DNA from: Naegleria gruberi
Lineage: Eukaryota
DNA length: 1,406 nt
NCBI GenBank assembly: GCA_000004985.1
Contig: GG739429.1
Strand: one strand, 5' to 3'
In this document: positions 1 through 1,406 of the stretch, piece by piece
Position numbering within the stretch: position 1 is the stretch's first letter
Layout of the letters: every line of letters starts with the position of its first letter
Made by a program: the position numbers and the translations under genes
Notes under the pieces: generated by a model
Databases searched by the model: none
Seen by the model: the letters and a program-made list of their open reading frames with translations, nothing else
What the model was told of the DNA's origin: nothing

Positions 1-32
1 TTGTAAAACTGTAAATGTAATGAAAATAGTTT
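1..32. repeat. Left-edge copy of the array terminus. It is a direct repeat of 1006-1036 with a 5-bp indel, probably the end of a second GTAAA-type array lying upstream of the window.
   Basis: Bases 20-32 (ATGAAAATAGTTT) are an exact 13-mer match to 1024-1036. The preceding 11-19 (GTAAATGTAA) matches 1006-1020 (GTAAATAAATGTAAA), with an extra AGTCA in the right copy: TAAATGTAA[AGTCA]TGAAAATAGTTT. Bases 3-19 also show GTAAA periodicity (GTAAAAC TGTAAAT GTAA). An exact 13-mer plus flank is unlikely by chance in 1.4 kb, even in AT-rich DNA (rough expectation ~0.1). Confidence 0.55.
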
Positions 33-188
33 CGGATAAATGAAATTCTCAAGTTAATGGAAAGTTCATTGTTTTCTAAAAGGTTACGCCCACAATTAAT
101 ACAGAGGAAGATACGCGGTGTTAAAATGAGAGGGTGGTAAAAACCTCCCAGCGATGGCTGTGCAAAAAAACTCGGCTGATAATTAATA

Positions 189-219
189 CCTGCAGTATTT
201 TAAAAATAAATACTGCAGG
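189..219. other. Perfect palindrome / stem-loop: a 12-bp stem (CCTGCAGTATTT / AAATACTGCAGG) around a 7-nt loop (TAAAAAT). It could be a bidirectional or minus-strand intrinsic terminator, or a protein-binding operator.
   Basis: 189-200 is the exact reverse complement of 208-219, with 5 of 12 G·C pairs. Each arm contains CTGCAG. A chance 12/12 inverted repeat with a short loop in this window is improbable (rough expectation <0.01). The plus-strand 3' flank (CACCTATTATTCC) is not U-rich at once. The minus-strand 3' flank (UAUUAAUUAUC, then a U7 run at 164-170) is moderately U-rich. A terminator role is therefore plausible but not canonical. Confidence 0.4.
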
Positions 220-345
220 CACCTATTATTCCATGCCGGAAGATTATGTATTATTATGTATCAAATGATTATTATTTAATACAAATTGTTTGCTTCATTA
301 TGATTAAACATTAAACTAGGTTTTATTAATAATAAATACTGTTAA

Positions 346-379
346 TTTATTCAACAAATAGTAATATATATAAATAAAC
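346..379 (+). promoter_or_regulatory. Possible sigma-A-like promoter or TATA element (TATATATAAAT) upstream of the 400-660 unit.
   Basis: TATAAA at 369-374 matches TATAAT 5/6 as a -10 element. The -35 candidates 17 bp upstream (TTTATT 346-351, or TCAACA 351-356 with a 12-bp spacer) are poor. In AT-rich DNA such hexamers are frequent, so this is weak. TATATAAA is also a perfect eukaryotic TATA box. Confidence 0.15.
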
Positions 380-413
380 GTTAATATTTCAATAATGTCT
401 AATTCTGAGCGAA

Positions 414-599
414 GTGAAGAATGGACTTGTTTTCATTGTAAACTTAATATTTTTCCATGCTCAAAAAATTATCACAATGGCCCCAACACCAACTACACCA
501 AAGAACAACAAGAAAACGAAAGACCTTAGCTCACCTTCTGCAGGTAGCTCCCACCCAATTAGTCCCACCCTTATTCAACCTTTTTTACGCTCTCAATGA
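414..599 (+). CDS. Doubtful 61-aa ORF with a GTG start. The N-terminal part is hydrophobic (GLVFIVNLIFF) and the rest is Pro/Thr/Ser/Lys-rich.
   Basis: It is listed in the ORF track, but the start codon is GTG and the upstream sequence (ctgagcgaaGTG) gives only a weak Shine-Dalgarno match. Codon third positions are C-rich (ccc, acc, tcc, cac), unlike the A/T-ending usage of the convincing minus-strand CDS. The internal ATG at 477 (acaATGg) gives only 40 aa. It is more likely a non-coding C/A-rich region than a gene. It is kept as a low-confidence alternative, possibly a small membrane peptide of type-I-toxin-like size. Confidence 0.15.
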   Translation: MKNGLVFIVNLIFFHAQKIITMAPTPTTPKNNKKTKDLSSPSAGSSHPISPTLIQPFLRSQ

Positions 600-631
600 T
601 TCTTGGTAAGTGTTCGTTGAAGTGAGGTTTC

Positions 632-660
632 AGATATCATCGAATGATATCTTTTTTATT
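632..660 (+). terminator. Candidate Rho-independent terminator: a 9-bp stem (AGATATCAT / ATGATATCT), a 3-nt loop (CGA), then TTTTTTATTTT.
   Basis: 632-640 is the reverse complement of 644-652. It is followed immediately by T6-A-T4 (653-663). The stem is AT-rich (2 G·C pairs), so the predicted stability is modest. It lies ~35 bp after the stop of the 414-599 ORF and the C/A-rich island. The minus-strand flank is not U-rich, so any activity is plus-strand specific. Confidence 0.4.
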
Positions 661-764
661 TTAATTTCAATTTAGTTTATGCCTCCTACTCGCATCTCCT
701 AATTTTTTTCTTATCTTTACTAATACTATTGATAAGTTTTTTTATAAGAGCCATATTTATTAAT

Positions 765-846
765 CTCGGGACCTGCTAATAAAGATTTATATCCATTAAA
801 GCAGGTCTCAAGGCTGAATCACCTTAAAGGTGAAACAGTCCCTGAG
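765..846. other. Nested three-stem structured element (candidate RNA structure or recombination/binding site).
   Basis: Outer stem CTCGGGAC (765-772) pairs with GTCCCtGAG (838-846), 8 bp with one bulged T at 843. Inner hairpin A is GACCTGCT (770-777) / AGCAGGTC (800-807), extendable by G·U and G-C to 768/809, with a 22-nt AT-rich loop. This stem shares bases 770-772 with the outer stem, so the two are alternative or partly exclusive pairings. Inner hairpin B is TCACC (819-823) / GGTGA (829-833) with loop TTAAA. The element is a relatively GC-rich ~80-bp patch inside very AT-rich DNA. Confidence 0.3.
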
Positions 847-955
847 CTTTAATACCCATTAGTATAATTACTTGTTCTCAATCTTGTTTTTATTAATTTG
901 CAATGTAACAACGTAAATAAACTTAAAAAGACATTACTATTTGTAATTATTTGAT

Positions 956-1020
956 ATAAATAAACGTAAATAAATGTAAATAAACGTAAATAAATGTAAA
1001 TAAATGTAAATAAATGTAAA
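956..1020. repeat. Tandem array of ~6.5 copies of a 10-bp unit GTAAATAAA(C/T), with a 20-bp higher-order unit in the first four copies.
   Basis: Read directly: 956-965 aTAAATAAAC, 966-975 GTAAATAAAT, 976-985 GTAAATAAAC, 986-995 GTAAATAAAT, 996-1005 GTAAATAAAT, 1006-1015 GTAAATAAAT, 1016-1020 GTAAA(g), then it degenerates. Isolated single copies of the same 10-mer occur at 913-922 (GTAAATAAAC) and 370-379 (aTAAATAAAC followed by G). The array ends 14 bp before the CDS stop codon. The 10-bp period equals one helical turn, so phased A3 tracts are expected to give intrinsic curvature. Confidence 0.9.
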
Positions 1021-1034
1021 GTCATGAAAATAGT

Positions 1035-1406
1035 TTATTTTTCTTCTGCAAAAAGCTTTTTCAATTCTTCTTTGATAGCAGCGTGTTCTATTTTATCTTG
1101 TATTTCTAGTTTCTCTCGTCTTTTAGTGATATAGGAAGATACTTCAATAGATAATGCCTCTATTTCACCGAATTGATTTTCTAACAATTCCATCTTTTTC
1201 TTATTTTCTGTAATAATCTTTTGATAAAATTGCATACAATACTCATAAAAACCTTCTTCTAGCTCAACTTTTCTTTTTAAAGCATCTCTTTCTTCTCTAT
1301 CTGAAAGAATATCTGTTAATTCTTGTAAAAGTAATGAAGTTTCTGACATAGTATAATCGTTTTGTTCATTATCTGTCTTGATAGCTTTAACAGCTTTCTT
1401 TGATAA
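1035..1406 (-). CDS. Hypothetical protein, C-terminal part, K/E-rich and probably coiled-coil. 5' end lies outside the window (the ORF track lists only 1035..1349 from the first in-window Met).
   Basis: The track shows a 104-aa minus-strand ORF 1035..1349 with TAA stop (complement of 1035-1037). I translated the complement of 1350-1406 in the same frame (…LSKKAVKAIKTDNEQNDYT-MSETS…). It has no stop codon up to base 1406, so the frame is open to the window edge for at least 123 codons. No Shine-Dalgarno-like purine run precedes the ATG at 1349 (upstream minus-strand sequence aaaacgattatactATG). It is therefore more likely an internal Met than the true start. Codon usage is A/T-ending (AGA for Arg, TTA for Leu, CAA for Gln, GAA>>GAG), consistent with the local ~30% GC. 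Heptad-like spacing of hydrophobics in a charged background (ELLENQFGEIEALSIEV…KLEIQDKIEHAAIKEELKKLFAEEK). I recognise no family. Confidence 0.7.
   Translation of the reverse strand, partial: LSKKAVKAIKTDNEQNDYTMSETSLLLQELTDILSDREERDALKRKVELEEGFYEYCMQFYQKIITENKKKMELLENQFGEIEALSIEVSSYITKRREKLEIQDKIEHAAIKEELKKLFAEEK

What the first reader, a model, noticed from the sequence alone, without database searches (positions are those of the whole stretch)
1..1036. Array terminus duplicated at the left window edge, bracketing a ~1-kb non-coding segment
Bases 11-32 repeat the last ~30 bp of the array region (1006-1036), including an exact 13-mer ATGAAAATAGTTT and a single 5-bp indel. Bases 3-19 look like the tail of another GTAAA-periodic array that the window start cuts off. 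There are two readings. In one, the window spans one unit of a larger segmental repeat (array + ~1 kb spacer). In the other, direct repeats flank a ~970-bp insertion-like, ORF-less segment that carries the hairpins and the C/A-rich island. A >1 kb ORF-free interval would itself be unusual for a bacterial chromosome.
Basis: seen in the sequence. Interest (0 to 1): 0.5.

Follow-up and report, generated by a model that had tools for sequence, protein, structure and literature searches.

The report
Short repeat in amoeba intergenic DNA
The window is not bacterial: it is a whole 1,406-base leftover scaffold of the draft genome of the amoeba Naegleria gruberi. The duplicated array end is a real but short direct repeat in ordinary non-coding DNA beside a gene, and its origin cannot be settled because the scaffold stops there.

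Summary
The exact 13-mer ATGAAAATAGTTT lies at 20-32 and 1024-1036. The best gapped alignment is 2-32 against 1005-1036 (28 of 33 columns; core 10-32 against 1015-1036, 21 of 23). Shuffles and Markov simulations almost never reach this score. Similarity stops dead after the 13-mer.

The premise is wrong. The only real ORF (minus strand, 1035-1349) is exactly XP_002668029.1 / NAEGRDRAFT_77061 of Naegleria gruberi NEG-M, recorded on a contig of exactly 1,406 bp. So the window is a complete orphan scaffold of a eukaryotic Sanger draft assembly. Two full-length copies of the gene sit on scaffolds of 312 kb and 695 kb.

N. gruberi averages about 1 kb of non-coding DNA per gene, so the ORF-free kilobase is ordinary. 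The "array" is a 10-bp minisatellite that starts 14 nt after the stop codon.

The repeat is most likely the passive scar of a local event of about 1 kb, either a duplication or an insertion. I found no terminal inverted repeats, no tRNA-like head, no protein match and no Rfam family. No tool here holds the N. gruberi genome, so the decisive comparison could not be run. Interest is low.

The parts
2..32 (+). Left copy of the direct repeat: array-like words (TGTAAAAC, TGTAAATGTA) followed by the exact 13-mer ATGAAAATAGTTT (20-32). It is cut by the contig end at base 1.
   Evidence: (family D4)
1005..1036 (+). Right copy of the direct repeat: the last full unit and the degenerate last unit of the minisatellite, then the 13-mer (1024-1036). 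Its last two bases lie in the stop codon of the minus-strand gene.
957..1026 (+). 10-bp minisatellite (TAAATAAAYG): six good units at 957-1016 and one degenerate unit, TAAAGTCATG, at 1017-1026. On the minus strand it starts 14 nt after the stop codon. Each unit carries AATAAA on the + strand.
   Evidence: (957-1020, period 10, 6.4 copies, 94%)
33..956 (.). AT-rich segment bracketed by the two repeat copies, with no known coding sequence. It holds GC-richer islands, three hairpin regions and solitary copies of the array unit (370-379, 913-922).
1035..1406 (-). 3' part (123 codons plus stop) of an orphan, probably coiled-coil gene. The annotated model is NAEGRDRAFT_77061 / XP_002668029.1, 104 aa from the ATG at 1349. 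Full-length 203-aa copies are NAEGRDRAFT_52432 and NAEGRDRAFT_46908, which lie on large scaffolds.
368..381 (+). Exact 14-mer ATATAAATAAACGT, also present at 954-967 (the start of the array). The array's first unit is therefore also duplicated 586 nt upstream.

Best explanation
The window is the complete 1,406-bp orphan scaffold of the Naegleria gruberi NEG-M nuclear draft assembly that carries gene model NAEGRDRAFT_77061.

What the parts are:
- Bases 1035-1406 (minus strand) are the 3' part of a species-specific orphan gene.
- Bases 1-1034 are its 3'-flanking, intergenic DNA, of average length for this genome.
- The 'array' is an ordinary 10-bp minisatellite that starts 14 nt after the stop codon.

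The left-edge match is a genuine direct repeat of at most 32 bp. It copies the minisatellite's degenerate end plus the 13 nt that run into the stop codon.

I take it to be the passive junction scar of a local structural event of about 1 kb in this flank, with no function of its own. Two forms are possible.
- A direct, tandem-type duplication with a 1,004-bp period. The contig would then begin in the end of the preceding copy. I slightly prefer this form, because similarity runs right up to the contig end without showing a left boundary.
- An insertion of 33-1023, bracketed by a target-site-type duplication.

A difference between haplotypes at such a site, or in the length of the minisatellite, would also explain why these reads stayed as a tiny scaffold beside the 312-kb scaffold that encodes the identical protein.

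Shown: the identity of the record, the repeat, its sharp right boundary, and the absence of coding or RNA-family matches.
Inferred: the duplication or insertion event, the haplotype explanation, and the lack of function.

The confidence of 0.7 is for the whole statement. Identity of the record alone is about 0.97. Of the two forms, I put the tandem-type duplication at about 0.35-0.4 and an insertion of any kind at about 0.3.
For: Identity of the record:
- The 123-aa open frame matches N. gruberi P0001 at 99%.
- The 104-aa ORF is exactly P0003 = XP_002668029.1, on a contig of 1,406 bp, which is the window length.
- P0002, on a 312,004-bp scaffold, is identical over all 123 aa. P0001, on a 695,587-bp scaffold, differs at one residue.
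- N. gruberi is a eukaryote of the Heterolobosea.

Ordinary spacing: 40.9 Mb, 16,620 genes, 57.8% coding, 5.1% repeats, a Sanger assembly of 1,977 scaffolds, and 'mainly a heterozygous diploid' (PMC9928731).

The repeat is real:
- Score 38 against 21.8 +/- 3.4 in shuffles, reached by 1 of 1000.
- Reached by 0 of 4000 Markov simulations.

Sharp boundary: 33-432 against 1037-1406 gives a best local score of 21, equal to the shuffle mean of 21.4.

Similarity reaches base 2, next to the contig end.

Nothing functional detected:
- No Rfam family near its threshold.
- No tRNA or tmRNA.
- No protein match to any six-frame ORF of 1-950.
- No structure in either repeat copy.
Against: - Only 32 bases of the left copy exist, so neither its left boundary nor any upstream array can be seen.
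- Identity over the array-like part is modest (14 of 20 columns). That fits an old duplication, or tail-to-target microhomology, equally well.
- Real-sequence tiles unrelated to this pair reach scores of 32-35, so shuffles and Markov models may overstate significance in cryptically simple AT-rich DNA.
- The array unit also occurs as solitary seeds at 370-379 and 913-922, and the array start is duplicated at 368-381. This hints at a general scatter of such words.
- The haplotype explanation for the orphan scaffold was not tested.
Confidence: 0.7

Rival explanations
1. Bases 33-1023 are a non-autonomous retroposon-like mobile element. Its 3' tail is the 10-bp minisatellite. It inserted directly after the stop codon by target-primed reverse transcription, which produced a 13-bp exact (up to 23-bp imperfect) target-site duplication. 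The GTAAA words left of the left copy would reflect a target that resembles the tail.
For: - Exact 13-mer direct repeat with sharp outer boundaries.
- The tandem array lies immediately inside the right copy, where a simple-repeat tail would be.
- Orphan-scaffold status fits an insertion polymorphic between haplotypes (inference).
- Non-LTR elements and SINEs with simple-repeat tails and target duplications of 7-20 bp are established knowledge.
Against: - No reverse transcriptase or any protein match in six frames.
- No tRNA-like head and no Rfam match to 7SL, 5S or tRNA.
- No poly(A).
- The copy number in the genome is unknown.
- N. gruberi is repeat-poor, at 5.1%.
- Similarity continues left of any plausible target duplication, up to the contig end.
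Confidence: 0.18
2. The match is chance or convergent cryptic simplicity. AT-rich intergenic DNA full of TAAA, TGTAAA and AATAAA words happens to contain the same 13-mer twice, without any duplication event.
For: - An exact repeat of 13 nt or more occurs in 8.4% of dinucleotide shuffles.
- The pattern with up to 2 mismatches occurs at least twice in 14 of 200 shuffles.
- Unrelated tile pairs reach scores of 32-35.
- Array-unit seeds are scattered at 370-379 and 913-922, and a 14-mer lies at 368 and 954.
Against: - The gapped score of 38 was reached by 1 of 1000 shuffles and 0 of 4000 Markov-order 1-4 simulations.
- Both copies of the 13-mer are directly preceded by TGTAAA words, which occur only twice elsewhere outside the array.
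- The similarity has a sharp right boundary rather than a gradual fade.
Confidence: 0.1
3. The repeat is an assembly or cloning artefact. The first ~32 bases of this tiny Sanger scaffold would come from a chimeric clone or a misjoined read from an allelic or paralogous copy of the array terminus.
For: - The record is a 1,406-bp orphan scaffold, the class of contig most enriched in artefacts.
- The repeat sits at the very end of the contig.
Against: - A chimera whose partner comes from the same 1-kb locus in a 41-Mb genome is very improbable a priori.
- The left copy differs from the right at 5 of 33 columns, so it is not a simple re-read of the same DNA.
- No vector or plasmid match.
Confidence: 0.04
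4. The locus is bacterial: a repeat array with a leader-like or insertion-like non-coding segment, for example a CRISPR-like array or an insertion sequence flanked by direct repeats.
For: The hairpin at 632-652 followed by a T-run looks like a terminator.
Against: - The record is Naegleria gruberi nuclear DNA.
- The array has 10-bp head-to-tail units without spacers.
- No match in bacterial or archaeal genomes, plasmids, phages, viral contigs or metagenomes.
- No transposase or any other ORF.
Confidence: 0.01

Closest known systems
Eukaryotic minisatellite (VNTR) with degenerate end units in a gene's 3' flank
   Same: Head-to-tail 10-bp units, 6.4 copies at 94%. C/T variant units alternate, the last unit is degenerate, and solitary seed units lie nearby.
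   Different: Nothing distinctive. What is added here is that about 30 bp of its end recur 1,004 bp upstream.
Target-site duplications of non-LTR retroposons or SINEs with simple-repeat tails
   Same: A short direct repeat brackets an ORF-less segment, and the 3' end of that segment is a tandem repeat abutting the right copy.
   Different: No RT ORF, no Pol III-type head and no poly(A). Copy number is unknown. The similarity has no visible left boundary.
Junction of a tandem segmental duplication (kilobase-scale)
   Same: The end of the unit is found again immediately before the start of the unit. There is a sharp breakpoint at 32/33 and at 1036/1037, and the contig ends close to the junction.
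   Different: Only 32 nt of the putative preceding copy exist, at about 85% identity. The rest cannot be seen.
MITE or DNA transposon flanked by a target-site duplication
   Same: A direct repeat flanks a non-coding segment rich in hairpins.
   Different: No terminal inverted repeats (best score 10; none). A 13-31 bp duplication is far longer than the 2-10 bp typical of DNA transposons (established knowledge).

Membership tests
Minisatellite / tandem repeat | Head-to-tail copies of a unit of about 10-100 bp with high identity | tested here: met
   TRF: 957-1020, period 10, 6.4 copies, 94% matches, no indels. Units are listed.
Minisatellite / tandem repeat | Copy-number polymorphism between alleles | not testable with these tools
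   DNA for the allelic or paralogous loci (NAEGRDRAFT_52432, NAEGRDRAFT_46908) could not be retrieved.
Non-LTR retroposon / SINE insertion | Target-site duplication flanking the whole element, tail included | tested here: inconclusive
   The 13-bp exact repeat (21 of 23 extended) brackets 33-1023. However, similarity runs on to the contig end, so a left boundary is not seen.
Non-LTR retroposon / SINE insertion | A-rich or simple-repeat 3' tail next to the 3' duplication | tested here: met
   (TAAATAAAYG)n ends 3-7 nt before the right 13-mer.
Non-LTR retroposon / SINE insertion | RT/endonuclease ORF, or a head derived from tRNA, 7SL or 5S with a Pol III promoter | tested here: not met
   No protein match to six-frame ORFs at E<=10. 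ARAGORN found 0 genes. No Rfam match near a gathering score.
Non-LTR retroposon / SINE insertion | Multiple dispersed genomic copies and an empty site in an allele or paralogue | not testable with these tools
   No tool here holds the N. gruberi genome.
DNA transposon / MITE | Terminal inverted repeats at the ends of the bracketed segment | tested here: not met
   The first 60 nt against the reverse complement of the last 79 nt gives a best local score of 10. No such pair is in the inverted-repeat list.
Tandem segmental duplication | Homology continuing upstream of the junction into a full preceding unit | not testable with these tools
   The contig starts at base 1 and the record is 1,406 bp long.
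CRISPR array | Repeats of about 23-50 bp separated by unique spacers of similar length, in a prokaryote | tested here: not met
   The units are 10 bp and contiguous, with no spacers. The organism is a eukaryote.
Bacterial chromosome segment (premise of the finding) | Sequence of bacterial origin | tested here: not met
   The ORF is exactly XP_002668029.1 of N. gruberi NEG-M, on a 1,406-bp contig. Nothing was found in 185,579 bacterial and archaeal genomes.

The most novel reading that the evidence does not exclude
Bases 33-1023 are an undescribed non-autonomous retroposon of Naegleria gruberi. It would use a 10-bp minisatellite (TAAATAAAYG)n as its 3' tail. It would have inserted exactly at the stop codon of an orphan gene with a 13-bp target-site duplication, and it would be polymorphic between the haplotypes of strain NEG-M, which would be why it survives as an orphan scaffold.
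Probability: 0.15. Interest if true: 0.3.

Novelty: already known. Interest (0 to 1): 0.08.

Why it matters
It matters mainly as a correction. The window was read as bacterial, but it is a leftover scaffold of a published eukaryotic draft genome. That removes the reason the ORF-free kilobase looked unusual.

The short direct repeat is at most a small structural-variant scar, or possibly the footprint of a mobile element, in a repeat-poor protist genome. That is of local interest for annotating N. gruberi repeats and for cleaning redundant haplotype scaffolds. It does not bear on any open biological question.

Tried and rejected
Attempts to find the sequence elsewhere, all with no match:
- BLASTN (distant mode) of the whole window against phages and plasmids.
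- Exact-pattern scans of genome contigs, metagenome contigs and viral contigs.
- Protein-guided locus searches in metagenome, genome and viral contigs.

As a result, the upstream sequence and the allelic loci could not be obtained.

The look-up of encoding contigs found nothing on record for five proteins: the 104-aa ORF, the 123-aa fragment, P0001, P0002 and P0003.

Tests of the segment itself:
- Rfam in E-value mode gave only hairpin-driven noise; the best match was mir-3116 at 22.8 bits against a gathering score of 65.
- ARAGORN found nothing.
- The terminator scan found 0 sites, and promoter-like sites numbered 14 against 8.8 +/- 2.4 expected. This scan is not meaningful for a eukaryote.
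- All six-frame ORFs of at least 20 aa from 1-950, joined into one query, gave no hit at E<=10.

Tests of the gene:
- Pfam on P0002 gave nothing significant.
- An exhaustive phmmer search of P0002 found only the protein's own cluster representative (P0001) and one weak, probably coiled-coil, match.

Literature: the gene identifiers appear in no held paper, and the 2010 genome paper is not held.

Ideas considered and dropped:
- Tandem repeat continuing past the 13-mer: no similarity.
- MITE: no terminal inverted repeats.
- Relic of a second gene copy at the left: no similarity in DNA.
- The 9 nt TTGTAAAAC at the very start, shared with the M13 forward primer region: too short, no plasmid match, and primer sequence is not part of a read.
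Full report
**What is in the sequence.** The window is AT-rich, 15-43% GC in 100-nt windows.

- Its only substantial reading frame lies on the minus strand. It is open from the right edge to a TAA at 1035-1037, giving 123 codons, with an ATG-initiated ORF of 104 aa at 1035-1349.
- Left of it, no ATG/GTG/TTG ORF exceeds 61 aa.
- Tandem Repeats Finder reports one real array, at 957-1020, with period 10, 6.4 copies and 94% matches.
- Written out, the array is six units of TAAATAAAYG followed by a degenerate unit, TAAAGTCATG. 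On the minus strand it begins 14 nt after the stop codon.

**Check of the observation.** The exact 13-mer ATGAAAATAGTTT is at 20-32 and 1024-1036, and nowhere else even at up to 2 mismatches.

- The best gapped alignment pairs 2-32 with 1005-1036: 28 identical of 33 columns, with one 2-nt gap, one 1-nt gap and two mismatches.
- The core, 10-32 against 1015-1036, is 21 of 23.
- Bases 3-19 carry GTAAA at 3 and 11 and GTAA at 17, spaced 8 and 6. They show no 10-nt period and no match to GTAAATAAAY at up to 1 mismatch. They are array-like words rather than a visible array tail.

**Is it more than chance?**

- The 13-mer alone is weak. An exact repeat of 13 nt or more, at least 100 nt apart, appears in 8.4% of dinucleotide shuffles.
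- The gapped match is much stronger. It scores 38 against 21.8 +/- 3.4 in shuffles of the left edge, and 1 of 1000 shuffles reached it.
- With the array terminus as probe against Markov-order 1-4 simulations of bases 1-900, none of 4 x 1000 reached it; the maximum was 36.
- One caveat applies. Tiles of the real sequence unrelated to this pair reach 32-35, so real AT-rich DNA has a heavier tail than the nulls.
- The similarity has a sharp right edge. After the 13-mer, 33-432 against 1037-1406 gives a best local score of 21, which equals the shuffle mean of 21.4.

I conclude that the repeat is real homology, at most 32 bp long as far as can be seen. Its left end is cut off by base 1.

**Where the window comes from.**

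- The 123-aa frame matches a single cluster among 5.8 billion proteins: 'predicted protein [Naegleria gruberi]', 99% identical.
- The cluster has three members.
  - P0001 = XP_002680600.1, NAEGRDRAFT_46908, 203 aa, on a 695,587-bp contig.
  - P0002 = XP_002672070.1, NAEGRDRAFT_52432, 203 aa, on a 312,004-bp contig.
  - P0003 = XP_002668029.1, NAEGRDRAFT_77061, 104 aa, on a contig of 1,406 bp.
- P0003 is letter for letter the window's 104-aa ORF. P0002 is identical to the window over all 123 residues, and P0001 differs at one.
- The window length is also 1,406. The window is therefore a complete, tiny, unplaced scaffold of the N. gruberi NEG-M draft, and both of its ends are contig ends.
- N. 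gruberi is a heterolobosean eukaryote.
- In agreement with this, nothing matched in phages, plasmids, bacterial and archaeal genomes, metagenomes or viral contigs.

**Consequences for the interpretation.**

- PMC9928731 (Table 1) gives these figures for NEG-M: a Sanger assembly of 40.9 Mb and 35% GC, with 1,977 scaffolds, 16,620 genes, 57.8% coding and 5.1% repeats. [quoted passage not shown]
- By my arithmetic, this leaves about 1.04 kb of non-coding DNA per gene. A 1-kb ORF-free interval is what this genome looks like on average, and the argument that it is unusual for a bacterial chromosome falls away.
- The array is an ordinary minisatellite in the immediate 3' flank of a gene.
- The gene is a lineage-specific orphan. 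It has no Pfam family, and an exhaustive search of 1.84 billion representatives found only its own cluster and one weak, probably coiled-coil, match.

**What the bracketed segment holds.**

- No Rfam family came near its gathering score; the best was a hairpin-only match to mir-3116 at 22.8 bits against 65.
- There is no tRNA or tmRNA.
- No protein matched any six-frame ORF of 1-950, even at E<=10. Since the N. gruberi proteome is in that database, no annotated exon of the allelic loci lies here either.
- There are no terminal inverted repeats at 33.../...1023.
- The two repeat copies have no secondary structure of their own.
- The segment does contain strong palindromic hairpins and a C/A-rich island. 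These are listed under things noticed in passing, and I could not tie them to any known class.

**How the repeat most likely arose.** A short, non-random direct repeat with a sharp breakpoint on one side is what a junction looks like. Two junction models fit.

- (b) A direct duplication with a 1,004-bp period. The contig would begin in the last 32 nt of the preceding copy. The similarity reaching base 2 without a visible left boundary favours this slightly.
- (a) An insertion of 33-1023 with a target-site-type duplication. The exactness of the 13-mer, and the tandem array sitting just inside the right copy like a simple-repeat tail, favour this. Against a canonical retroposon stand the missing RT ORF, Pol III head and poly(A).

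Either model, or simply a different minisatellite length on the second haplotype, would explain why these reads were left as a separate scaffold next to the 312-kb scaffold that encodes the identical protein. That step is inference.

My estimates:

| Explanation | Probability |
|---|---|
| Real, passive junction scar (including the mobile-element version) | about 0.7-0.85 |
| Mobile-element version specifically | about 0.15-0.2 |
| Chance or cryptic simplicity | about 0.1 |
| Assembly or cloning artefact | about 0.04 |

I see no evidence for any function of the repeat.

- The exact-protein look-ups returned nothing for all five sequences tried.
- The scans of the large collections are exhausted.
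- The decisive test is to align the window to the scaffolds carrying NAEGRDRAFT_52432 and NAEGRDRAFT_46908 and to count genomic copies of 33-1023 and of the 13-mer. It could not be run.

**Verdict.** The features are of known, ordinary kinds, and interest is low.

Noticed in passing
window 170-240 (arms 179-200 / 208-229): Near-perfect inverted repeat with 22-nt arms and a 7-nt spacer; each arm holds CTGCAG. It folds as a long hairpin with z = -6.8 on the + strand and -6.6 on the - strand. Its only Rfam 'match' is hairpin-driven noise (mir-3116, 22.8 bits against 65).
   Followed up: partly
window 765-846: Two adjacent hairpins (ACCTGCT...AGCAGGT and CACCTT-AAA-GGTG, the latter inside a longer stem), closed by an outer stem CTCGGGAC/GTCCCTGAG. 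z = -6.2 on the + strand and -5.7 on the - strand. No Rfam family matches. It could be a small structured RNA or a palindromic DNA relic.
   Followed up: partly
window 632-662: Perfect 9-bp stem (AGATATCAT / ATGATATCT) with a 3-nt loop, followed by T6AT4. It looks like a terminator, but the scan did not call it because it has too few G-C pairs. In a eukaryote, a T-run would be a Pol III stop signal.
   Followed up: no
window 477-600; motif at 550-570 on the minus strand: C/A-rich island with GC skew about -0.43. The minus strand reads GGGTGGGACTAATTGGGTGGG, which is four G3 tracts with short loops, a G-quadruplex-type motif, in an otherwise AT-rich window.
   Followed up: no
window 368-381 and 954-967: Exact 14-mer ATATAAATAAACGT, the longest exact long-range repeat in the window. 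The start of the array is therefore also duplicated, 586 nt upstream, inside a TATA-like run. Solitary array units also lie at 370-379 and 913-922.
   Followed up: partly
window 606-611 and 673-675: GTAAGT followed 62 nt later by ...TTTAG, which resembles the ends of a spliceosomal intron on the + strand. No ORF or protein match supports a gene there.
   Followed up: partly
window 1034-1039 and 957-1016: The gene's stop codon lies inside AATAAA on the minus strand (1039->1034). Each minisatellite unit carries AATAAA on the + strand and ATTTA-type words on the minus strand. Any link to 3'-end formation or mRNA stability is untested.
   Followed up: no
whole window; proteins P0001, P0002, P0003: The N. 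gruberi NEG-M annotation holds three gene models for what is essentially one protein: 203 aa on a 695-kb scaffold, 203 aa on a 312-kb scaffold (1 residue different), and a truncated 104-aa model on this 1,406-bp scaffold. This points to separately assembled haplotypes or a recent duplication, and to redundancy in the draft.
   Followed up: partly
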